In this document: positions 45,636 through 54,611 of the stretch, piece by piece
Position numbering within the stretch: the stretch's first letter is position 1
How the letters are laid out: every line of letters begins with the position of its first letter
Source: a virus
Lineage: Duplodnaviria > Caudoviricetes
Direction: 5' to 3' (one strand)
DNA: 64,000 nt
IMG/VR virus record: IMGVR_UViG_3300031418_000003
Translations under genes and position numbers: made by a program
The notes under the pieces: model-generated
Told to the model about the DNA's origin: nothing
Seen by the model: only the letters and a program-made list of their open reading frames with translations
The model's database searches: none

Positions 45636-46019
45636 TTAAGCCGTTTCGTTTAACCTGGGAATCCCGTACTCAACAATGGTCCCTACGAAGCTAAGTTTAG
45701 ACTTTACTCCATCGGCTTCAACCAGGATATGAACACGGTTACTCTCAAATTCGCGATCCAGAACGATATCTACACCCGGAACCATATCGCCCACTTTCTT
45801 AACGATCTTAAGCAGTTCTGAATAATGCAAGGCGTTATGCACTTTCAGACATTTGTTGATCTCGATCTCAATGTTTCCGTACGCGCACTGAACATCCTTG
45901 ATTGATTTCTTCAGGTCGTACGACTCACCGATAATCACACAAGTCAACCAGATGGCACCTACGGCGACTGCGATCACAATGATCAGTAGGATCCATCCCA
46001 GCAATTGATAATTAGGCAT
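45636..46019 (-). CDS. Membrane-anchored hypothetical protein
   Basis: N-terminal hydrophobic helix LLGWILLIIVIAVAVGAIWL. Confidence 0.7.
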   Translation of the reverse strand: MPNYQLLGWILLIIVIAVAVGAIWLTCVIIGESYDLKKSIKDVQCAYGNIEIEINKCLKVHNALHYSELLKIVKKVGDMVPGVDIVLDREFESNRVHILVEADGVKSKLSFVGTIVEYGIPRLNETA

Positions 46020-46090
46020 TTTCTTATTCTCTTTTTAAACGAAACGGCAAAGGGGTAACAGGTAGAGGGAACGCCCTCTACCCACCACGT

Positions 46091-46768
46091 TTACTTTAAG
46101 TTTACATCAACGTGCTCAAGCAGAGCTTCACGCAGCCACTTGTTGACTGGGTCGGTTGCTTGGTTTGCGTAGTAGCTACGCATGATCCCAGCATGAACCG
46201 GGATGTACTCCGTGAGACTACCTTTGATGTTGCCAGTGTGGATATCCACAAACACATGCAGCCTGTTAGTCAGTCCACGTTGTACGGTTACCCGCGTTTG
46301 TAAAAGCTGATCGAGGTAGAAAGTCCCATAAGAGATATCTTTCACATTCTGCTTAAAGGTCAAACGCTTCAGCCAGCCAATGTCGGTGATAAACGGTTTG
46401 ATGTTTACCCGCTTGATACTGGCAATGATGATATTGATCGAATCGTTGTAGGACGGACGGAATTCCTTATGGAACCAAACTTCCAACTGATTCAATATCG
46501 ATTTGCTGATTGTGGGTGTTTTACCCAGCTTGATCTCTTTATGATCGACCACACCTGCGATACAGATGACCAGGTAATACAGACCTTCTCGCAGCATAAT
46601 GGAGGCAGTGACACCATCAGCAGAGAAAAGGGACTTCATTGGATAGCTGACCCCAGTTGGTTCCAGTACCAGTTTTTCCAGACGCTTGTTGACCGCAGTA
46701 ATGTTGGCGGACAAGATGCTTAGGAACATCCGGAGATAAACGACGGCTACATTCTTATAGTCAAACAT
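46091..46768 (-). CDS. Hypothetical protein
   Basis: 225 aa ORF; GAGGA RBS. Confidence 0.7.
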   Translation of the reverse strand: MFDYKNVAVVYLRMFLSILSANITAVNKRLEKLVLEPTGVSYPMKSLFSADGVTASIMLREGLYYLVICIAGVVDHKEIKLGKTPTISKSILNQLEVWFHKEFRPSYNDSINIIIASIKRVNIKPFITDIGWLKRLTFKQNVKDISYGTFYLDQLLQTRVTVQRGLTNRLHVFVDIHTGNIKGSLTEYIPVHAGIMRSYYANQATDPVNKWLREALLEHVDVNLK

Positions 46769-46902
46769 TAACTATATCCTCAGAGTTTAAGTGTGTATCA
46801 AAGGTGTGTAATGTCCATATTTGTTGTATTCGTCCTCACACTACAAATGCAGTATGGGATCACAATATAGAAATTACTTGAGTAGACTAAAATTAAATTG
46901 AG

Positions 46903-47274
46903 TTATTTAGAAGCTGAGTTGATCAACTTATCCATGACTTCTTTGATGATGATCTCAATATCCGTTGGATCGGGGACTTCGCACAGTTTGTCCTTTGCAA
47001 GCTTACGCTGCAGGTTAGCCATGACCGCGTTAAAAATTGTATCCAGGTCAATGTCCAGCACATCTTCGTACTTCAGCACTTCATGATAAACCCGCAGGTA
47101 ATCTAAGTGAACGATTTCTTTACTGCGTGATTTAGAGCCTGCGAATTTAGCTTTACGAGTCATAAATAATTTCCTTCTGTATGGATGTGTGGCACGATGC
47201 CAAGAAAAACGACACAGGCCGGCAATCAGCCAGCCCGTTGTAAATAATGCGATGATGAAATAAACGATCTTCAC
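46903..47274 (-). CDS. Membrane-anchored hypothetical protein
   Basis: N-terminal hydrophobic segment. Confidence 0.65.
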   Translation of the reverse strand: MKIVYFIIALFTTGWLIAGLCRFSWHRATHPYRRKLFMTRKAKFAGSKSRSKEIVHLDYLRVYHEVLKYEDVLDIDLDTIFNAVMANLQRKLAKDKLCEVPDPTDIEIIIKEVMDKLINSASK

Positions 47275-47877
47275 TTAAACCTCAAAAAGTTTCTCCGGAC
47301 TCACTACCTGAAGGTTCTCATCTCTGATCTCACTCAGAGCACCATTGATGACCATGCCTTCGAAAATGTGGTATGTTCCGCCCTTGTTGATATGAACCTC
47401 AAACTGCGCGTCAAAGGTTTTGGTAAAACGATGAGGGTACAATACTTTATAACCCAGACAATACTCCAGATTATTTTTACTTTCTGATCGCCAGAACGAA
47501 ACCGTCTTCTTAATATACTCGGATGCTTCATAAGTCAACCAGGTATCAATGATACGGGCAAACAAATTAAAGCGAGTATTAATTTTGTCGTTCATCCTGA
47601 AGACGAAGTCGTGATTGCGGACTTCCTGGAGAATGAACTTACGGATCCCTTCTTTAGGGCGAGTGAATTTAATTTCACCATCCCGCTCAACGCCGAAGAT
47701 ATGGAGATGCATGGAGTGATTGATAATGAACTCAATTCCCACCATTGGCACTGACGTTAATTCAATGGGTTTGAGAGCGGATGGATCAACTTGGTAGACT
47801 TTGATCTGTTGTACAGTAAAATGTTCGTTCAGCAGATCGGTAAATTGGGTACGTACGTTTTCAAAGTTCATAATCAT
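47275..47877 (-). CDS. Hypothetical protein
   Basis: 200 aa ORF; early motif upstream. Confidence 0.7.
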   Translation of the reverse strand: MIMNFENVRTQFTDLLNEHFTVQQIKVYQVDPSALKPIELTSVPMVGIEFIINHSMHLHIFGVERDGEIKFTRPKEGIRKFILQEVRNHDFVFRMNDKINTRFNLFARIIDTWLTYEASEYIKKTVSFWRSESKNNLEYCLGYKVLYPHRFTKTFDAQFEVHINKGGTYHIFEGMVINGALSEIRDENLQVVSPEKLFEV

Positions 47878-47989
47878 TCCTAAGGTTAATAACTAAGGTT
47901 AGTAATAGCCCTATAATAATATCTGCTTAAATAATTATGACAAGTATTTATTTTATGTAAGAAACACCTGACATGTTCTCTACTTTTTT

Positions 47990-48260
47990 ATGGGAGTCTT
48001 AATCTATTGCCAGAGAGCCCATAACGAAGTATGACCGCCATCGTGCTTCGAGGTAACAGCCTTGTTCGTCCAATTACTATTTATGCCAAGGGAGAGTGCT
48101 ACCGTTCTCTCCCTTTCTTTGAATATATTCGCTGAGTGTATTGAAAGAAAGTGTGGGGGCATACTTTCATTCTGCTGTGTAGTAAGGTCATGATAAACAA
48201 AGCCCAGAGGCTCGGTCTTCCTTTTCCTCCTTCCTCTGGGCTTTTATCGTGTGTTTCTCT
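47990..48260 (+). ncRNA. Candidate structured small RNA
   Basis: ORF-free; TATG at the 5' end; stems agggagag/ttctccct and aaagcccagagg/cctctgggcttt followed by a U-rich tract. Confidence 0.4.
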
Positions 48261-48324
48261 ATATTAATTTTTTTTTTGCTGTAAGTTGATATAGAGAAAT
48301 GACGCGCTGTTATTTCTGCTCTTG

Positions 48325-48500
48325 TTGCTTAGCCTGAACGTTTGGCAAGGGGGATCGACATCCCCCTCTTTCTATATGCATTTGCGAGTGTCTATAGAAA
48401 GCGAACGCCTAGCTGGTATCGCTTGCTTGATGGAAGTGCCACTCTATCAAGTTCTTCAGCCCTATATGTTGCTGTGTGCTTATAGGGCTCTTTTTCTTTT
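48325..48500 (+). ncRNA. Candidate structured RNA or leader upstream of the Tad2-like gene
   Basis: Consecutive hairpins ending in agccctata/tatagggct plus a U-run. Confidence 0.4.
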
Positions 48501-48511
48501 TAAGGATTAAT

Positions 48512-48811
48512 ATGCCACAAGTAGAATCAGCTAGTCCAGTTCTGGTAACTTACGGTGTTGCTAACGAAGCAATGTTTTCTACATTAGAAAGCAAGAAGCT
48601 CAAAAAGTACGCACGCGTGGGTTGGAACGGAAAGAACCTGCATGTTCAGGTACATGGTAGTATTCCAACTAATCAGGTAGATCTGGGTAACGGCGATAAC
48701 GCATACCTTAACCCGTTCCTTGTTATCGTTAACAAAGATCGTGGCTCGGTAGACACCTGGGTTCCATCAATCTCTGACCTTCAAGGCAAAGATTGGTACG
48801 AAGTAATTTAA
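48512..48811 (+). CDS. tad2: Tad2-like (DUF2829) protein, putative nucleotide-signal sponge
   Basis: YARVGWNGK ... WVPSISDLQGKDWYEV matches the DUF2829 ARxGWNGK / WxPSxxDxxxxDW pattern. Confidence 0.75.
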   Translation: MPQVESASPVLVTYGVANEAMFSTLESKKLKKYARVGWNGKNLHVQVHGSIPTNQVDLGNGDNAYLNPFLVIVNKDRGSVDTWVPSISDLQGKDWYEVI

Positions 48812-49043
48812 TAATGCAGAGTTTATACTCTGTAAAAGAATTCCAGCCGGAGAGTGTAGCACCTTAGCTGAGTGCATCCGGTATCTCTCCCGACTCTACA
48901 TGTTCCAGTCAACGGGAAAAGATCCAGATCGACAGGACCACAATTAGGTTGATCAATCAATAGATAAGTTTTATGTCGAAATGAGAACAGTCCTTTCACA
49001 GCTTCTGAAAGTACACCAACTGTATCTAATCGAGATTAAATAG

Positions 49044-49268
49044 ATGAAACTTTATCTTATTGAACGTACCGATAAATGTCGGCATTACGATAACTATTTT
49101 GCTACAGTGGTAGCAGCGCCAACAGAGGAAAGATCACGTGAGTTAGCGTTGGCTTTATTCGCTGAGGGAGATCAATCATCTTCGGATGAATTCCTCAACG
49201 TAAGCACGGTCGCTATAAGCGCTCTTGTCCCTGAGGGTATAATCTTATCCGAGTATAATGCTGGATAA
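49044..49268 (+). CDS. Small conserved phage protein
   Basis: MKLYLI...YD.Y...VVAA.TEE.SR...IIL.EYNAG pattern. Confidence 0.7.
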   Translation: MKLYLIERTDKCRHYDNYFATVVAAPTEERSRELALALFAEGDQSSSDEFLNVSTVAISALVPEGIILSEYNAG

Positions 49269-49276
49269 GAGTAATG

Positions 49277-49331
49277 GCCGCCTGTAATACCCGAGCAATC
49301 GGGAATTACTGATTTGAATATCAAAGGCGGC
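49277..49331 (+). ncRNA. Compact three-way-junction RNA element
   Basis: gccgcct/aggcggc closing stem; gtaat-cccga-GCAA-tcggg-attac arm; tgat/atca arm. Confidence 0.45.
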
Positions 49332-49406
49332 AATATTATTAAGAGTTCATCTTATTTATCTTTTGACTGAACTGTCTCAGTCGATAAAAATATAAAGGTA
49401 AGTAAA

Positions 49407-49922
49407 ATGGATTCTATTGGGATGCTGTTAGTTGTGCTGGTTGTAGGTGTACTTATTGGTGTTGCACTTTACCATTTCTTCTCTAAGAAGAAAGAGGGTA
49501 ATATCGGCACCGATCCAAAACTGCAGGCTTATGTGGACTCCGTCCAAAGTCAGCTGCAAGCGCAGGTGAATGAACTTAAAACCAAACTTCTTCCTGCCGA
49601 TGTCCAAGAGAAACTCAAGGATGTTGGCGATGGGTTATGGGAAACGTTCAAAGCAAAAGTCCTGGCTGATTTAACAGAACTGAAAGAACACGGCTTGACC
49701 CATGTTGCAAATATCGATGCTGTTGTTCAACAGGTTGAGAACTTCACCAAAGAAGAACTGGTGAAACTTCATCTTGAAAAAGAAGAAGCACAGACCCCAG
49801 TTCCAAAACCTGTGGTAATAGGAAGTGATCCTATCTTGACCGTTTCACCTGCAGGTCCACAAACTGTGGTCTCTTCTGCACCGACGGTTCCTGTTGCTGA
49901 TGATCAGAACAAAACAGTTTAA
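49407..49922 (+). CDS. Membrane-anchored coiled-coil protein
   Basis: N-terminal TM helix; P/V-rich tail; terminator acctggg/cccaggt after the stop. Confidence 0.75.
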   Translation: MDSIGMLLVVLVVGVLIGVALYHFFSKKKEGNIGTDPKLQAYVDSVQSQLQAQVNELKTKLLPADVQEKLKDVGDGLWETFKAKVLADLTELKEHGLTHVANIDAVVQQVENFTKEELVKLHLEKEEAQTPVPKPVVIGSDPILTVSPAGPQTVVSSAPTVPVADDQNKTV

Positions 49923-49989
49923 TAGTTAGTTACCTGGGTCTCGTGCCCAGGTTTTTCTACCTTCTCTTCTTAAAGTTTTATTACGATAG

Positions 49990-50407
49990 AATTTTAAGAA
50001 GGGCGGTACCGATTCCGTCTCGGTGGTCGAGGGCTAGGCGTGCGAAGGGAGTAGGGATGCGACATCCCTATGATATGTCTTGGTTGTAATAGCTTCCAAG
50101 TAACTCTAGATGAGACAAATGACCCCGGCAGCCAGCCGGTTAAACATTGTGCGGAATCACAATGAGGGGCAAAGACTCTTGCATAAAGATTTATTAATAT
50201 AAGTCTTTGAGCGAGCGTTTCGGGTTGGGTGCGCCAAAGGAGCCATCGTAGGCCAGGTCTGAGGGATAGTGACATAGTCACGTGATGTCAGAAGCGGGTT
50301 GCCGTGAGGTAATCAAACCGAGTACAGTTGGACTTTGTCTGACCTGGGAGTTAGTGACTCCCACCAAGCTTCCATAGTTCAGTCGGTAGAACGAGGTATC
50401 TGATGGA
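49990..50407 (+). ncRNA. Structured RNA upstream of the HNH gene (contains motif copy A)
   Basis: Many stems including a GUGA tetraloop hairpin; shares five sequence blocks with 50913-51012. Confidence 0.55.
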
Positions 50408-50876
50408 TTTAAATGATTTAATGGTTCTTAAGGATAAGATAACCCGTGATCCAGAAACTAACTGTTGGAACTGGAATAAAAGCACCAGGGAAGGCTATGG
50501 TCAGATAACGATAGATGGGGTGCATTGGACCACACATCGGTATGTTGCCACAATCATCTTTGGCGTTATTCCAGAAGGCCATGTAGTGAGACATTCTTGC
50601 GATAACAGATTGTGCTGTAATCCAGGTCATTTAAGACTGGGAACACATAAAGATAACTGGAAAGATTCTGAGTCAGTTCACAGGGAATCTCATGTTAAGA
50701 TGAGAAGGGCATTAGGTTGGACAGTTGGAGATACGATTTATCCGACATCCAGAACAGCTCAGAAAGAAACAGGACTTCCTATGAAAACTCTAATGAGACA
50801 TATGAAGAACGGGATCTTCGATTTGGAAGCGTATCGCTCCGGATGTAAAAAGCGGGGAGTAATCCCTAAAGTTTAG
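50403..50876 (+). CDS. HNH homing endonuclease (HNH_3 domain plus NUMOD1-like HTH)
   Basis: CWNW...GYG...HRY...VVRHSCDNRLCCNPGHL..GT.KDN; C-terminal YPTSRTAQKETG. Confidence 0.9.
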   Translation: MDLNDLMVLKDKITRDPETNCWNWNKSTREGYGQITIDGVHWTTHRYVATIIFGVIPEGHVVRHSCDNRLCCNPGHLRLGTHKDNWKDSESVHRESHVKMRRALGWTVGDTIYPTSRTAQKETGLPMKTLMRHMKNGIFDLEAYRSGCKKRGVIPKV

Positions 50877-50912
50877 CTTTTAGCAAGACTTGAACTTGCT
50901 AAAAGAGTCAAA

Positions 50913-51012
50913 TTACACGCCATGCGGTTGTGCCGGGGTGCAACAGGCCAGGGGCGCTTAGGCGACCATACCTGGGATCCACTTCCCATCTGTCGGTAGG
51001 TGTGGTGTGTAA
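50913..51012 (+). ncRNA. Structured RNA downstream of the HNH gene (motif copy B)
   Basis: 11-bp closing stem ttacacgccat/gtggtgtgtaa around a multi-way junction. Confidence 0.55.
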
Positions 51013-51079
51013 CCCTTTATTAACGAAGAGAGAAGGGGTCAGTTGATCCCTTTTCTTTTTGTTTGTCCGGAGATAATTT

Positions 51080-51190
51080 ATGTCTTTATTAAAGAAGCTT
51101 CATAACTGGTTTTATAAAGATATGGTTTACTCTGTTTCAGCCGATGCTTGGTTCTACCAAGAAGGCGCGGCAGGTGAATGGGTGGATTAA
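51080..51190 (+). CDS. Small protein (36 aa, not in ORF track)
   Basis: GGAG RBS; MSLLKKLHNWFYKD...; TAATG coupling to the next ORF. Confidence 0.55.
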   Translation: MSLLKKLHNWFYKDMVYSVSADAWFYQEGAAGEWVD

Positions 51191-51363
51191 TGAAAATTCA
51201 CAAAGTAACTTCTGACCGTATTTTCTTTACCACGGATTCTGGTGCTTATGGATCTGTTCTTAAAGAAGATGTGAGCAAATTAGTAAAAGCAATTGATCTG
51301 CCCGAAGGTAAGATCGATGCTCGTACTGGAACTTGTATGACGGAATTAAAGGAACAAGAATGA
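51190..51363 (+). CDS. Small hypothetical protein
   Basis: MKIHKVTSDRIFF..., coupled to glutaredoxin. Confidence 0.6.
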   Translation: MKIHKVTSDRIFFTTDSGAYGSVLKEDVSKLVKAIDLPEGKIDARTGTCMTELKEQE

Positions 51364-51620
51364 AAGTAGTGATTTACGGTAAAGAAGGCTGTGCTTTCTG
51401 TACCCGTGCTAAAGAGCTTTGCGAAGCCAAAGAGATCGATCACGAATATATCGATTTCGTTAAGACAGGCATGACCAAACAAGATCTCGAGCAGATCGTG
51501 GGTAAACCTGTTGGTACTGTTCCACAGATCTTAGTGGACGGTGTTGCTATTGGTGGTTACACTGACCTGGTTCCCCTGGTTCAGAAACATACCACCCCTG
51601 TTCAAATTGAGAAGGAATAA
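51360..51620 (+). CDS. grx: Glutaredoxin
   Basis: IYGKEGCAFC active site, TVPQI and IGGYTDL. Confidence 0.92.
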   Translation: MKVVIYGKEGCAFCTRAKELCEAKEIDHEYIDFVKTGMTKQDLEQIVGKPVGTVPQILVDGVAIGGYTDLVPLVQKHTTPVQIEKE

Positions 51621-51623
51621 CCT

Positions 51624-51761
51624 GTGGATTTTGATTTAGACGATCTGAACCTTGACGGTCTGGATGAAGCTGAAGCTCGTAACCAAGAGCGCCAGGCTGA
51701 AGCTAACAAAGAAGCAGCTGCTATCGATGATGATGCAGATTGCGAAGGTTGTAAAATCTAA
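51624..51761 (+). CDS. 45-aa acidic peptide ending in an NrdA-like CxxC tail (not in ORF track)
   Basis: AAGGA RBS, GTG start; MDFDLDDLNLDGLDEAEARNQERQAEANKEAAAIDDDADCEGCKI. Confidence 0.7.
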   Translation: MDFDLDDLNLDGLDEAEARNQERQAEANKEAAAIDDDADCEGCKI

Positions 51762-51787
51762 TTTTAATAAGGCGATAAATTTTGACT

Positions 51788-51925
51788 ATGAAAAAGAAAA
51801 AGACCTCTTTGAAAGAAAAGATTCGTCGCCAAAATCAGAATGCCGAGAAGCATCTGTACCTCGACGGCGATGGTAATACATTTAGTATGACCAAAGTTAA
51901 AGACGGGTACAAGTTAAACGTGTAG
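51788..51925 (+). CDS. Small basic protein (45 aa, not in ORF track)
   Basis: MKKKKTSLKEKIRRQNQ...YKLNV. Confidence 0.5.
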   Translation: MKKKKTSLKEKIRRQNQNAEKHLYLDGDGNTFSMTKVKDGYKLNV

Positions 51926-51987
51926 GGTAGCGATATCCTATTTCTATTTTGATCTCCAACCACTACTACTAACTGCGAGATAAAAAT

Positions 51988-52608
51988 ATGCAACTTAAAT
52001 TAATTACATTCGACAAAAACAATTATTCAATCAGTACTCAGTACATTGAGCTAGATGGCCTAGCCATTGTCGAGTACCGTTCTCCGATCACCGGTGAATT
52101 TTCTCCCAGTAACACCCAAATCCCGTCGATAACTGATCCCTCTATAATTGCAGTTATTATCCAGAATAGCTTTGCTAAAGCTGAACCTATTCAAATAAGC
52201 AAGCACCAGGGTGCTTATTTAACGGATTCCGGTAAAACGATGGAGGTGATTAACAGACCTTCAGACTTTGACGATATCCAAATTTGGATCAAGTATGATA
52301 AAGAAGAGGGAAACTGGGAACGCGAAACTCTCAGTAGTTATATGGACGAGATTCACTATCGACGTCTGGAGTATAAATATTTAGTTTCTCCCCAAGGAAT
52401 GAATCCAGAAGAAGTGGAGAAACAGATTTCCCTTACCATGGAGGTTGGTAAAAGCGTACTTTGGAGCCGTTATATAAAAGGTACGTCTTTAACTTTCAAA
52501 CTTTCCAGCCAATTCGAATATGACCGGTTCTACAACGACCCAGATTACCAGTTCATCAAAGTTCCGGTTGGTGTCGACCCTAACACGCAAGGGTTTAAAC
52601 TTACATAA
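51988..52608 (+). CDS. Hypothetical protein
   Basis: 206 aa ORF. Confidence 0.75.
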   Translation: MQLKLITFDKNNYSISTQYIELDGLAIVEYRSPITGEFSPSNTQIPSITDPSIIAVIIQNSFAKAEPIQISKHQGAYLTDSGKTMEVINRPSDFDDIQIWIKYDKEEGNWERETLSSYMDEIHYRRLEYKYLVSPQGMNPEEVEKQISLTMEVGKSVLWSRYIKGTSLTFKLSSQFEYDRFYNDPDYQFIKVPVGVDPNTQGFKLT

Positions 52609-53261
52609 GTATATTATGTAATTCAATCGAGTGTAACTGTTTGCTGTTCTGAGGAATAGCATGGTTTCATTACCCCGTTATATTCGACTGTAAGACCCTC
52701 GTTATCCAGGTGTGGGTACATAACGAGGGCAAACCAGCAGGTTGCACTGCTGGACTAAATCCAAGAGTGAAAGCTGGCTTAAGTCCAGTAAAAACTAAGT
52801 AGCTCTTGGTGGGCGATGCAATAGTTTGAAAACTACTGTGTCATAGCAACGCGTCTAAAGTAAACGGTCCCTTCGTATAAGCTCAATACACTTTGGCGTC
52901 CGCGCCGAAGAAATAAGAGATGAACCCGAAACACTCTCAGGGACCCCTCTTCGGAGATAATAGCTTTAGAAACGGGAACGTTGTGCCCATTCCTTAACGA
53001 TGGTTATCCGTCGTTATCCCTTTGTACCAGTGGCTGATATCCAAGTAGAGCTTTAATTATACCTGACGGATAGCGCTCACAGTGTTTCAACCATTGGTAC
53101 AACCTCTTGAGGATCTTGAACGAAAACCGTAGGGTAACCGCTGAGCACATTGCGTTGCATTCAAGGCGGCTGTAGCAGGAGACTGGGTAGTCTTCCTGGG
53201 TGATATCAAGATCCTCAACCTTATCTACTCTCCGTGATATGGAGTAGACAAACCCTGTGGT

Positions 53262-53369
53262 GGGGGCATCGTAACCATCTGATGAGTCCGCGATGTAAAA
53301 AACAATGAGACGAAACGGGTTCTGTCAAAGGGGACTCCAACTCCAGACAGATCCGTCATGAATCGCTCC
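53262..53369 (+). ncRNA. Type I hammerhead ribozyme
   Basis: CUGAUGA 53279-53285; stem II GUC/GAC; GAAA 53312-53315; stem III cgg..tctgtc/gacaga..ccg; GUC cleavage triplet 53355-53357; stem I cat/atg plus ggggc/gctcc. Confidence 0.85.
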
Positions 53370-53614
53370 GCCTTAACTGTGAAGAGCATCCTCAGTCTAC
53401 GATTCTAGAGGAACAGCAGCGCTACCTGCAAAGGACCATTGGCAAATGGGATCTTAGGGTTAGCAAACAGTCCGCTCCTTTTGCCAGAGGAGAAGTTGTC
53501 AAAACCAAGAGGTGTAGACAGCCTTTAGTTCACTGTAGTGAAGAATCGGGGTTGCTCCCGTAGTAGTCACGAACAGTGATCTTTAGAGTGTTTACCGGAT
53601 AACAATATCGTACG

Positions 53615-53640
53615 CCCCTACCTCCTCACGGGGGTAGGGG
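53615..53640 (+). terminator. Intrinsic terminator closing the large ncRNA
   Basis: cccctacctcc-tcac-gggggtagggg followed by tttatgttt. Confidence 0.7.
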
Positions 53641-53756
53641 TTTATGTTTGGCTTTTCATTTGATCATATGAGCTCGTTCCATATATGTCCTAGGATGGAT
53701 GATATATGAAACATCTTATTATAGTTAATAAGACTATTTCGAAATAGAGGTAACAT

Positions 53757-54611
53757 ATGAGTTTGAGTAGCCCTGTCGATTTTGCTATCGACTATGTAAT
53801 GAACGGTCCAACCGATATCTCGGAATATCTGTTGAAGTTGGCCTTTCACAATCCCAATAACGGGTACGGTGGCATCTGGGGAAATCCCAATGACTCCTTC
53901 TCTGTAGAGCAGGGTATCCGTGAAAAAGTCATCGCCAAGATGGTTGCGCCGTTACTTCAGGTAGCCGGTGGTCAAACTGAGATCATTGATTTGTCCGGTG
54001 CACAGATTGAGAATTTAGCAGGCGGTGTTATTTGGGTTTCAGTACCCGACTTCATGACCGGTGGTCGTCGTATCATCGAGGTAATCGAAGTCTACCCAGG
54101 CAATATCAATCGAGCGGTTGCTAACGGTTATAATTTTGGCAGTGCTGCAACTTGTGGTGGCGGGGCAATCAATAACTCGCTGAGCCGATTGATGACTGGA
54201 TTAACAGACAGTAACGTTACTCGTTCTTTCAACAGCTTTACTATTGTTGGACCCAACTCTTTCCTGATTCGTGATGCGGGTTCGGCAATGTTTAACATGA
54301 TCGCCAAAGTGGTTCTCTCCTATGACGAGAGCTTTAACGGCGTACCTGTTAAGATGTTTGATAAGTTTGCTGAGTTAGTTGAACTCGGTACCAAAGCTTA
54401 CATCTATAAAACTTGCCGTCGCGGGATGCAAGAAGCAGTCTCTCGTTTTGGTGTAACTGTAGATGATGTCCAAGATGACATTCAGGGATACTCCGATGCT
54501 GCTCAGCAGTTCAAAGAGTTCTACAACGACAAGATGAAGAAGTACATGGCTTATGCTGATGCCAAAGGTAAAACCGACCAACTTAAAATGATTGTTCCAA
54601 GGAAACGATAA
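53757..54611 (+). CDS. Putative virion structural protein
   Basis: 284 aa; GAGG RBS; late-type plus-strand operon (context only). Confidence 0.6.
   Translation: MSLSSPVDFAIDYVMNGPTDISEYLLKLAFHNPNNGYGGIWGNPNDSFSVEQGIREKVIAKMVAPLLQVAGGQTEIIDLSGAQIENLAGGVIWVSVPDFMTGGRRIIEVIEVYPGNINRAVANGYNFGSAATCGGGAINNSLSRLMTGLTDSNVTRSFNSFTIVGPNSFLIRDAGSAMFNMIAKVVLSYDESFNGVPVKMFDKFAELVELGTKAYIYKTCRRGMQEAVSRFGVTVDDVQDDIQGYSDAAQQFKEFYNDKMKKYMAYADAKGKTDQLKMIVPRKR

What the first reader, a model, noticed from the sequence alone, without database searches (positions are those of the whole stretch)
51624..51761. Free-standing peptide resembling the ribonucleotide reductase C-terminal redox tail, right after glutaredoxin
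Seen: an unannotated 45-aa acidic ORF with an AAGGA RBS, ending DDDADCEGCKI. Established: class Ia NrdA ends in an acidic flexible tail with a cysteine pair (E. coli ...CESGACKI) that shuttles electrons from glutaredoxin/thioredoxin to the active site. Inference: a split-off swinging arm acting in trans on a tail-less phage NrdA, or a Grx-coupled modulator of host RNR.
Basis: partly seen in the sequence, partly recalled or inferred. Interest (0 to 1): 0.72.

Follow-up and report, generated by a model that had tools for sequence, protein, structure and literature searches.

The report
Free-standing reductase-tail microprotein beside phage glutaredoxin
A giant phage that lacks the large subunit of ribonucleotide reductase makes a conserved 45-residue acidic protein that ends like the two-cysteine recharging tail of its host's enzyme, so it probably acts on the host's supply of DNA building blocks, though this is untested.

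Summary
Window 51624-51761 (+) is a GTG-started 45-aa acidic ORF with an AAGGA ribosome-binding site, 3 nt after a GrxA-family glutaredoxin gene. It is a real gene: dN/dS is 0.00-0.16 across five phages and 17 clusters are all 45-46 aa.

The phage genome (266,753 bp, terminal repeats) has no NrdA, so the reading "arm for a tail-less phage NrdA" fails. It does carry an NrdB 80% identical to E. coli NrdB.

- It is fused to glutaredoxin in Pantoea phage Survivor and one relative.
- It occurs in Chaseviridae and KP34-like phages that have no RNR or Grx genes.
- It is a monocistronic 46-aa gene in 84 enterobacterial species genomes.

All members end acidic run, C-x(2-4)-C, then two residues. In E. 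coli K-12 only nrdA ends that way.

Alignment statistics do not support homology to NrdA. No function has been tested and I found no paper on the family. Best reading, about 0.4: a glutaredoxin-cycled mimic of the NrdA tail acting on host RNR. Earlier notes of this scan report the same kind of peptide on other DNA.

The parts
51624..51761 (+). 45-aa acidic microprotein gene (GTG start, TAA stop); member of PHROG 10239
   Evidence: The ORF is seen. dN/dS is 0.00-0.16. 17 clusters are all 45-46 aa. PHROG 10239 matches at E 4.4e-8.
51612..51616 (+). AAGGA ribosome-binding site, 7 nt before the GTG, inside the end of grx
   Evidence: Read. AAGGAA, GAGGAA or AAAGGTG sits at the same place in AH04 and L009-L011.
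51624..51683 (+). Conserved N-terminal acidic/hydrophobic module (residues 1-20, MDFDLDDLNLDGLDEAEARN)
   Evidence: M1, D2, F3, L5, L13, E15, E17, A18, R19 and N20 are invariant in 18 sequences. The module is kept in the Grx fusions. A shuffle test against NrdB tails was not significant.
51726..51758 (+). C-terminal tail DDDADCEGCKI: acidic run, Cys40 (51741-51743), Cys43 (51750-51752), then K-I at the carboxyl end
   Evidence: D39, C40, C43, K44 and I45 are invariant. The tail follows the same plan as the NrdA ending ...DDGCESGACKI. The in-frame motif is unique to nrdA in E. coli K-12.
51360..51620 (+). GrxA-family glutaredoxin gene (active site CAFC), immediately upstream and probably co-translated
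   Evidence: PF00462 matches at E 1.1e-10. NF008401 scores 98.2 bits, above its cut-off of 84. The adjacency is kept in AH04, L009 and L010. In L011 the two genes lie within about 450 bp in the other order.
51788..51925 (+). Conserved basic 45-aa ORF (MKKKKTSLKEK...) that travels with grx and the peptide
   Evidence: Present next to the pair in AH04 gp14, L009, L010 and L011. No Pfam or PHROG match.
51190..51363 (+). Upstream small ORF of the same + strand gene string (57 aa from the ATG at 51190); PHROG 20147, unknown function
   Evidence: The homologue is AH04 gp17.

Best explanation
The ORF encodes a free-standing microprotein in three parts: a conserved acidic/hydrophobic N-terminal module, a short helical-looking linker, and a flexible acidic C-terminal dithiol tail. 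The tail copies the plan of the redox tail of class Ia RNR alpha (NrdA).

Proposed mechanism, all of it inferred:
- The tail's cysteine pair cycles between dithiol and disulfide.
- It is re-reduced by the GrxA-type glutaredoxin encoded just upstream, or by host Grx1 or thioredoxin in phages that carry no Grx.
- It engages host NrdA, which is the only alpha subunit available because the phage supplies only NrdB.
- I lean towards an auxiliary arm acting in trans that helps re-reduce the NrdA active-site disulfide. Together with the phage NrdB and Grx it would raise dNDP output from the host enzyme.

What is shown: the gene is real and under purifying selection, the tail motif and its position at the carboxyl end, genetic linkage and fusion to glutaredoxin, and the absence of a phage NrdA. 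What is inferred: reduction by Grx, binding to NrdA, and the sign of the effect.
For: 1. It is a real protein. dN/dS is 0.00-0.16. Family members keep the same length in phages and bacteria.

2. The tail plan is constant. Every member has an acidic run, C-x(2-4)-C, then exactly two residues. That matches NrdA, whose ending is ...DDGCESGACKI in E. coli, Erwinia and Pantoea.

3. The motif is rare outside NrdA.
- In E. coli K-12, over all six frames, the only in-frame C-x(2-4)-C-K-I-stop is the end of nrdA.
- In four other Enterobacterales genomes the in-frame hits were nrdA (4 of 4), the microprotein (3 of 4) and 3 others of unknown coding status.

4. A profile built only from the microproteins hit one NrdA C-terminus end to end: profile positions 21-45 at E 0.005 for one genome, within the 401-genome search.

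5. In genome G105 the microprotein ends ...DEDDCAGGACKI and its own NrdA ends ...EDDGCAGGACKI.

6. The link to glutaredoxin is strong.
- The neighbouring gene is GrxA family, the family of E. coli Grx1. That Grx1 is a classic RNR hydrogen donor is recalled; PMC4078304 (abstract, passages) states that glutaredoxins reduce the C-terminal cysteine pair.
- Two natural Grx-microprotein fusions, 74% identical to each other, exist.
- Grx fusions to every RNR component, also in viruses, are documented in PMC6187632 (abstract and section 5).

7. All 6 of 6 peptide-bearing jumbo phages have NrdB and none has NrdA. The window phage's NrdB is 80% and 78% identical to E. coli NrdB over its two exons and keeps a host-like C-terminal tail.

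8. The mechanism is plausible. PMC4078304 (passages) reports that dithiols reduce the RNR active site directly and act cooperatively with the tail route.
Against: - There is no statistically significant alignment to NrdA. hhalign pairs only C-K with residues 759-760 at probability 0.2%. The profile finds nothing in the PDB at E up to 10. The phage-only profile gives no hit on the E. coli K-12 chromosome at E up to 10.
- An ungapped shuffle test of the last 14 residues against the E. coli NrdA tail gave 20 of 1000 for the phage peptide and 118 of 1000 for the bacterial one.
- The NrdA hit at E 0.005 is one of about two expected by chance over 401 genomes. Two unrelated hits at similar E-values appeared in the same search.
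- Host NrdA tails are Cx4C in 120 of 120 sequences examined. The phage peptide is CxxC and the enterobacterial one is Cx3C.
- The peptide is not tied to RNR genes. Faunus, Myduc, phiKDA1 and phiA050 have it but no NrdA, NrdB or Grx.
- OBP, Sureiya and N1M2 have NrdB and Grx but no peptide.
- Bacterial copies have varying neighbours that are not nrd or grx genes.
- A free peptide must compete with a tethered native tail, so a stimulating effect is not obvious.
- No expression, structure or assay data exist.
Confidence: 0.4

Rival explanations
1. Same mimicry with the opposite sign. The microprotein is a decoy or inhibitor. It competes with the NrdA tail for Grx1 or thioredoxin, or it occupies the site where the tail works, and so slows RNR regeneration. 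This would be a bacterial and phage counterpart of yeast Sml1.
For: - The tail motif and the Grx linkage are as for the best explanation.
- The chromosomal copies are monocistronic. They have their own -10 element (consensus CCTATACT) and an intrinsic terminator. The -10 resembles stationary-phase sigma-S promoters (consensus recalled, not tested), which would fit a brake on dNTP synthesis.
- Sml1 is reported to inhibit by interfering with the R1 C-terminal tail (Zhang et al. 2007, seen only as a reference entry in PMC4078304; content recalled).
Against: - Lytic phages that need dNTPs, and that add their own NrdB and Grx, gain nothing obvious from slowing host RNR.
- Fusing a decoy to the reductase it would titrate makes little sense.
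- No sequence relation to Sml1 was tested or is claimed.
Confidence: 0.15
2. The peptide is a glutaredoxin-linked dithiol whose target is not RNR. It could be a redox relay or sensor for another disulfide substrate, or an electron sink. On this reading the likeness to NrdA reflects only shared recognition by GrxA-type glutaredoxins.
For: - Adjacency and fusion to Grx are the strongest links found.
- In both fusions the terminal K-I is replaced by A-V. That fits K-I being a Grx-recognition feature that becomes dispensable once the tail is tethered (inference).
- The peptide occurs in phages without any RNR gene.
- Bacterial neighbours are unrelated to nrd.
Against: - No alternative target is suggested by any context.
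- The motif is otherwise found only on NrdA in the genomes examined.
- In the jumbo phages the peptide always occurs together with NrdB (6 of 6).
Confidence: 0.2
3. The peptide is an acidic microprotein with an unrelated job, such as a nucleic-acid mimic, an anti-defence factor, a metal-binding peptide or a lysis-cassette accessory. The CxxC-K-I ending would then be a metal site or a coincidence, and the position next to grx would be accidental.
For: - Net charge is about -12.5, as in many small phage proteins that mimic nucleic acid (recalled).
- In Chaseviridae the gene overlaps the start of the spanin genes.
- The family has a patchy distribution.
- There is no significant homology to NrdA.
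- The conserved N-terminal half has no explanation.
Against: - A composition-preserving shuffle of the last 14 residues gives the NrdA-type ending with probability 5e-4 (my arithmetic: I at -1, K at -2, Cys at -3, the other Cys at -6 to -8).
- Independent of that, the gene sits beside or is fused to the glutaredoxin family known to reduce that ending.
- The G105 tail equals that genome's own NrdA tail over 8 residues.
- There is only one Cys pair, which is too few for a usual zinc site in a monomer.
Confidence: 0.2
4. It is not a gene but a chance ORF in the spacer after grx.
For: It is very short, starts with GTG, and no RNA or protein evidence is available.
Against: - dN/dS is 0.00-0.16 with dS up to 2.28.
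- Length and start position are conserved.
- Homologues occur in unrelated phage families and in 84 bacterial species genomes.
- The family has a PHROG model.
Confidence: 0.02

Closest known systems
C-terminal redox tail of class Ia ribonucleotide reductase alpha (E. coli NrdA, last ~25 residues, ending ...DDGCESGACKI)
   Same: - Both are acidic and predicted flexible.
- Both have two cysteines 2-4 residues apart.
- The second Cys is the third residue from the carboxyl end, and the ending is C-K-I.
- Both are genetically tied to a GrxA-type glutaredoxin.
- Both occur in organisms, or phages of organisms, whose NrdA ends the same way.
   Different: - The peptide is a separate 45-aa polypeptide, not the end of a 761-aa enzyme.
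- The spacing is CxxC here and Cx3C in enterobacterial copies, against Cx4C in 120 of 120 NrdA sequences examined.
- It has a conserved N-terminal module that NrdA lacks.
- No significant alignment was found.
Glutaredoxin domains fused to RNR components (Facklamia ignava Grx-NrdB; Grx::NrdB in 24 viruses, grx::nrdA in two viruses; PMC6187632, abstract and section 5)
   Same: Grx is physically coupled to an RNR-type element, also in viruses. The Survivor-type protein is Grx followed by the tail module.
   Different: Here the fused or neighbouring element is only a tail-like microprotein with no catalytic or radical subunit. In the window the two are separate genes.
Yeast Sml1, a small protein inhibitor of RNR that interferes with the R1 C-terminal tail (Zhang et al. 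2007; seen only as a reference entry in PMC4078304; content recalled)
   Same: It is a small free-standing protein that acts on the tail-dependent regeneration step of class Ia RNR.
   Different: It is eukaryotic, no sequence likeness was tested, and it is not itself a dithiol tail. Its effect is inhibitory, whereas the sign here is unknown.
Split class II RNR NrdJa/NrdJb, in which the C-terminal cysteine-bearing part is a separate polypeptide (recalled; no paper seen)
   Same: It is a precedent for the redox-tail part of an RNR being encoded by its own gene.
   Different: NrdJb is a much larger piece of the enzyme itself and is encoded beside NrdJa. Here no alpha gene exists in the phage, and bacterial hosts keep a full NrdA with its own tail.
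PHROG 10239 (unknown function)
   Same: The window protein matches the model over residues 2-45 against model positions 6-47 of 47, at E 4.4e-8.
   Different: The PHROG carries no function. The Faunus and phiKDA1 relatives did not reach E 0.01 against any PHROG.

Membership tests
Class Ia RNR alpha C-terminal redox tail (as a motif) | Cysteine pair a few residues apart at the extreme C-terminus, preceded by acidic residues | tested here: met
   The window peptide ends DDDADCEGCKI. D39, C40 and C43 are invariant across families. The second Cys is always third from the end.
Class Ia RNR alpha C-terminal redox tail (as a motif) | Enterobacterial ending C-x4-C-K-I | tested here: inconclusive
   K-I is kept, but the spacing is CxxC (phage) or Cx3C (Enterobacteriaceae). 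Cx4C was seen only in the G105 copy, CAGGACKI, which is identical to that genome's NrdA tail.
Class Ia RNR alpha C-terminal redox tail (as a motif) | Part of an NrdA polypeptide (PF02867 catalytic body) | tested here: not met
   It is a stand-alone 45-aa ORF. There is no PF02867 or PF00317 hit anywhere in the phage genome.
Class Ia RNR alpha C-terminal redox tail (as a motif) | Detectable sequence homology to NrdA | tested here: not met
   hhalign probability is 0.2%. The PDB profile search found none. There was one NrdA hit at E 0.005 among 401 genomes.
Class Ia RNR alpha C-terminal redox tail (as a motif) | Reduced by glutaredoxin or thioredoxin and able to reduce the active-site disulfide | not testable with these tools
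   This needs biochemistry. Only linkage and fusion to a GrxA-family Grx are shown.
PHROG 10239 | Match to the family profile | tested here: met
   E 4.4e-8, 34.5 bits, residues 2-45 against model positions 6-47 of 47.
GrxA family glutaredoxin (the neighbour gene, 51360-51620) | Score above the curated cut-off of NF008401, and a CxxC active site | tested here: met
   98.2 bits against a cut-off of 84. TIGR02183 scores 79.6, below its cut-off of 106.5. The active site is CAFC.
NrdB C-terminal docking tail (considered for the peptide's N-terminal module) | Order-specific similarity to the last 14 residues of NrdB beyond composition | tested here: not met
   Shuffles reaching the observed score numbered 161 and 259 of 1000 (phage peptide) and 46 and 115 of 1000 (bacterial peptide). 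hhalign against NrdB found nothing.

The most novel reading that the evidence does not exclude
The microprotein is a portable 'swinging arm'. Its N-terminal module docks on host NrdA. Its C-terminal dithiol, recharged by glutaredoxin, reduces the NrdA active-site disulfide in trans. Phages would then overdrive the host reductase without encoding its large subunit. In the jumbo phages this would act together with a host-like NrdB and a Grx; in small phages the peptide would act alone. The chromosomal homologues in Enterobacteriaceae would be an unrecognised endogenous regulator of the rate-limiting regeneration step of class Ia RNR.
Probability: 0.2. Interest if true: 0.85.

Novelty: new variant of a known kind. 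Interest (0 to 1): 0.62.

Why it matters
Regeneration of the active-site cysteines through the C-terminal tail is an accepted step of class Ia RNR catalysis. I recall it as rate-limiting in steady state, but I saw no paper on that point.

A conserved, separately encoded copy of that tail would be a new layer of control over dNTP supply. It is carried by several unrelated phage groups and by 84 enterobacterial species genomes. It would also be a new way for viruses to tap a host enzyme.

It would help explain why a group of jumbo phages carries only the small RNR subunit plus a glutaredoxin.

The question is directly testable with existing E. coli RNR assays and tail mutants. If the peptide has nothing to do with RNR, it is still an uncharacterised, strongly conserved microprotein of Enterobacter, Klebsiella, Citrobacter and their phages.

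Tried and rejected
- **Tail-less phage NrdA.** Rejected. PF02867, PF00317 and NRDD find nothing in the genome, and tblastn with E. coli NrdA gives a best E of 1.3.
- **The N-terminal module as a copy of the NrdB docking tail.** The shuffle test was not significant and hhalign found nothing. I do not use it as evidence.
- **Homology to solved structures or to NrdA by profile.** None found.
- **Stop-codon read-through making a Grx fusion.** grx and the peptide share a frame in the window and L009 (264 nt apart) but not in AH04 (259 nt) or L010 (257 nt). Rejected.
- **A 138-nt repeat of the nrdA 3' end in Enterobacter G001 as the origin of the gene.** It is only a 42-nt remnant without a start codon, next to REP-like repeats. 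Rejected.
- **tblastn of the window peptide against 'phages'.** It found nothing, although AH04 carries an 87% identical copy. This was a false negative, probably from the low-complexity filter. Relatives P0036 and P0043 did give hits. Most of those are weak (E 8e-4 to 0.8). Only Faunus, Myduc, phiKDA1 and phiA050 were checked by translation.
- **Conserved neighbours of the bacterial gene.** None is consistent. The largest neighbour cluster covers 28 of 78 loci. G105 and G311 were uninformative.
- **ESM Atlas.** Only unnamed clusters came back.
- **tRNA and Rfam scans of 46000-54000.** Nothing found.
- **Promoter and terminator scan around the gene.** No more sites than in shuffles.
- **RNA evidence.** No RNA holder listed.
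- **Alignment A5.** It misaligned the stand-alone Grx sequences onto the peptide and was not used.
- **Literature.** Searches for family motifs, accessions, phage names and NrdB-only phages found no paper on this protein. Supplements are closed, so tables there may hold something I could not see. Table S1 of PMC6187632 is one example.
Full report
**1. The observation**

Window 51624-51761 (+) holds a GTG-started ORF of 45 codons, MDFDLDDLNLDGLDEAEARNQERQAEANKEAAAIDDDADCEGCKI. AAGGA lies at 51612-51616, 7 nt upstream and inside the end of the preceding gene. The protein has pI 4.05 and net charge about -12.5.

The preceding gene (51360-51620, stop at 51618-51620) is a glutaredoxin. It matches PF00462 at E 1.1e-10 and the NCBIfam GrxA-family equivalog NF008401 at 98.2 bits, above its cut-off of 84. 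TIGR02183 scores below its cut-off.

**2. It is a real gene**

- Erwinia phage AH04 has an annotated 45-aa 'hypothetical protein' (gp15) in the same place, directly after its Grx.
- A word-indexed search of 5.8 billion proteins returned 17 clusters out of 17 candidates, all 45-46 aa. In the 18-sequence alignment 19 columns are invariant, among them M1, D2, F3, L5, L13, E15, E17, A18, R19, N20, D39, C40, G42, C43, K44 and I45.
- Three further complete jumbo-phage contigs carry it.
- Across the five DNA copies, all 10 pairwise dN/dS values lie between 0.00 and 0.16, with dS of 0.26-2.28. The start codon (GTG or ATG) and a purine-rich ribosome-binding site sit at the same place.
- The protein matches PHROG 10239, of unknown function, at E 4.4e-8.

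**3. The genome around it**

The window is G000:C1:197056-261055 of a 266,753-bp virus record with direct terminal repeats, estimated 100% complete. By its NrdB it is close to Erwinia phage AH04 (97% identity, genus Meadowvirus). It groups with Pseudomonas phage OBP, Edwardsiella pEt-SU, Serratia Sureiya and Yubaba, and Klebsiella N1M2.

- It has no NrdA. PF02867 and PF00317 give no hit, NrdD gives none, and tblastn with E. coli NrdA gives a best E of 1.3.
- It does have NrdB, 80% and 78% identical to E. coli NrdB over two exons. The exons are separated by about 1 kb that holds a 233-aa endonuclease-like ORF. The NrdB C-terminus is host-like...SSYLVGQIDSDVDADDFKGFDL.
- AH04, Sureiya, OBP and N1M2 likewise lack PF02867.
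- All 6 of 6 peptide-bearing jumbo phages (own, AH04, G403, G404, G405, Survivor) have NrdB and none has NrdA.

Any RNR partner must be the host's NrdA.

**4. The family is much wider**

A profile of the 18 sequences was run against 1.84 billion representative proteins. It gave 26 hits at E up to 0.001.

- **Fusions to glutaredoxin.** P0019 is a 164-aa protein named 'Glutaredoxin' of Pantoea phage Survivor (cluster member P0058). A GrxA-type domain is followed in one open frame by the whole microprotein module, ending ...DNDCKDGCAV. A second fusion, P0070, is 167 aa, 74% identical and has the same ending. In L011 the peptide lies about 450 bp upstream of grx instead of downstream.
- **Other phage families.** Copies occur in Erwinia phage Faunus (gp31), Proteus phage Myduc (gp32) and Aeromonas phage phiA050. 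The first two belong to Chaseviridae. In these phages the gene runs into the spanin genes. The C-terminal part of gp38 of the KP34-like Enterobacter phage phiKDA1, which ends CDGCTI, is also a copy. These four phages have no NrdA, NrdB or Grx.
- **Bacterial chromosomes.** A 46-aa protein occurs in Citrobacter, Enterobacter, Klebsiella, Raoultella, Kluyvera, Leclercia, Lelliottia, Cedecea, Yokenella and other genera. One form is MEIDLDNLVFNGLDEAEERNAERLDDADKKAQAIVADDDCGDACKI. The scan confirmed 84 species genomes and kept 80 loci. In 79 of the 80 loci I recovered a 44-50-aa ORF, and every one ends DCGDACKI.
- **How the bacterial gene is organised.** It is monocistronic, with its own -10 element (consensus CCTATACT) and an intrinsic terminator. 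Its neighbours vary, and the largest neighbour cluster covers 28 of 78 loci. E. coli K-12 has none.
- **Frequency in Enterobacterales.** In an even sample of 401 genomes, 13 had a hit at E up to 0.01. Seven were strong, three were divergent small ORFs, one was an NrdA C-terminus and two were unrelated.
- **Where it is missing.** OBP, Sureiya and N1M2, which have NrdB and Grx, have no copy at E up to 1.

**5. Is the ending really NrdA-like?**

In favour:
- Every member ends with an acidic run, C-x(2-4)-C and exactly two residues. These are K-I in nearly all, T-I in phiKDA1 and A-V in the two fusions.
- NrdA of E. coli, Erwinia, Pantoea and 120 of 120 best Enterobacterales hits ends D-[DG..]-C-x4-C-K-I.
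- A degenerate pattern for C-x(2-4)-C-K-I-stop was run on five genomes. In E. coli K-12 the only in-frame hit with a true stop, in any of six frames, is the end of nrdA. In the other four genomes the in-frame hits were nrdA (4 of 4, plus one remnant), the microprotein (3 of 4) and three others of unknown coding status.
- The microprotein profile hit the C-terminus of one NrdA end to end...LEDDDDCAGGACKI, profile positions 21-45.
- In G105 the small protein ends ...PDEDDCAGGACKI and that genome's own NrdA ends ...AEDDGCAGGACKI.
- A composition-preserving shuffle of the last 14 residues yields this terminal pattern with probability 5e-4 (my arithmetic).

Against:
- hhalign of the family against E. 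coli NrdA pairs only C-K with residues 759-760, at probability 0.2%.
- The profile finds nothing in the PDB at E up to 10 and nothing on the E. coli K-12 chromosome at E up to 10.
- The NrdA hit has E 0.005 for one genome. About two such hits are expected by chance in 401 genomes, and two unrelated hits did appear.
- Ungapped shuffle tests gave 20 of 1000 (phage) and 118 of 1000 (bacterial).
- The cysteine spacing differs from the hosts' NrdA.

My reading is that this is a short linear motif shared with NrdA. It is not demonstrable homology. Its specificity rests on the position at the carboxyl end, its rarity and the independent link to glutaredoxin.

**6. How it most likely works**

These facts are established from the literature:
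- The C-terminal cysteine pair of class I RNR alpha reduces the active-site disulfide and is itself reduced by thioredoxins or glutaredoxins (PMC4078304, abstract).
- Dithiols such as DTT reduce the active site directly and act cooperatively with the tail route (PMC4078304, discussion passages).
- Grx domains are found fused to every RNR component, including in viruses (PMC6187632, abstract and section 5).

From these I infer the following:
- The microprotein's dithiol tail is a substrate of the GrxA-type glutaredoxin next to it, and of host Grx1 or Trx in phages without Grx.
- It works on host NrdA.
- Because this phage adds a host-compatible NrdB and a Grx but no alpha, I lean towards an auxiliary arm in trans that speeds re-reduction.
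- The fusions fit a Grx-to-tail-to-target relay. They keep the N-terminal module but swap K-I for A-V. That would fit K-I serving Grx recognition and the N-terminal module serving something else, perhaps target docking. This last point is pure inference.

The sign of the effect could equally be negative, a decoy like Sml1. The target could also be something other than RNR. Section 5 and the distribution data in section 4 leave real room for an unrelated function.

My odds are:
- real Grx-linked dithiol microprotein, about 0.8
- RNR-directed tail mimic, about 0.4 to 0.55 counting both signs
- stimulating arm in trans, about 0.2 to 0.25

**7. Comparison with what is known, and novelty**

The closest known things are:
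- the NrdA tail itself: same motif plan, but not part of NrdA and no significant alignment
- Grx-RNR fusions (PMC6187632)
- Sml1 (recalled)
- the split class II NrdJa/NrdJb (recalled)

The family already exists as PHROG 10239 and as 'hypothetical protein' records. Full-text searches for its motifs, an accession, the phage names and NrdB-only phages found no paper that treats it. Supplements were closed.

Earlier notes of this scan describe the same kind of peptide on other DNA: 42 findings in at least 35 genomes, with similar readings. One of them was later given 90 in 100 for what was seen and 12 in 100 for its bold reading. I treat those notes as leads and not as support. They made me keep the mechanistic confidence modest.

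I class the finding as a new variant of a known kind, namely an RNR redox tail or Grx relay element encoded as a free microprotein.

**8. Limits**

- No RNA holder was listed.

Noticed in passing
outside the window: G000:C1:75797-77913 (L003 11798-13917): The phage nrdB is split after residue 237 by about 1 kb that carries a 233-aa endonuclease-like ORF (L003 12610-13311). This is probably an intron with a homing endonuclease. The related contig G405 is split at the same profile position, whereas AH04, G403, G404 and Survivor have an unbroken nrdB.
   Followed up: partly
window 50403-50876 (+): An HNH endonuclease ORF (PF13392, E 6.7e-13) sits upstream of the grx gene string. A similar 157-aa ORF lies at L011 2922-3395. 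AH04 has a tRNA-Cys in the corresponding stretch, and related phages keep grx inside a tRNA cluster. ARAGORN and Rfam find no RNA gene in window 46000-54000.
   Followed up: partly
window 51741-51800: The last six codons of the peptide gene (TGCGAAGGTTGTAAAATC), the stop and the 26-nt spacer up to the next ORF's ATG are almost invariant at the DNA level in four phages, although dS elsewhere in the gene is about 0.3-1.6. There may be an extra constraint on the nucleic acid, such as coupling to the next ORF or a promoter.
   Followed up: no
window 51360-51761; L009 3737-4138: grx and the peptide are in the same reading frame, separated only by TAA and one codon, in the window and L009. They are not in frame in AH04 or L010. 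Read-through would reproduce the natural Survivor-type fusion, but it is not conserved.
   Followed up: yes
L011 4588-4863 (protein P0072): The Grx of this related phage has an acidic C-terminal extension...SEDPLDTDDLGGI. It contains the pentapeptide DTDDL, which is also present in the E. coli NrdB C-terminal tail. Not tested for significance.
   Followed up: no
L110 (G001:C1:3709624-3709788): In an Enterobacter genome a 42-nt copy of the 3' end of nrdA (encoding QDDGCESGACKI and the stop) is repeated 138 nt downstream of the nrdA stop, with REP-like palindromes between the copies. It has no start codon and looks like a duplication made by a repeat-element insertion.
   Followed up: yes
window 51788-51925 (+): A basic 45-aa ORF (MKKKKTSLKEKIRRQNQNAEK...) stays next to grx and the acidic peptide in all five jumbo-phage loci, even where the gene order differs (L011). 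It has no family match.
   Followed up: no
L112 1391-1813 (genome G105): The divergent 50-aa chromosomal homologue (GTG start, AAGGAG ribosome-binding site) follows a gene for an 86-aa coiled-coil protein. From memory that protein resembles UbiK/YqiC. No family search was run on it.
   Followed up: no
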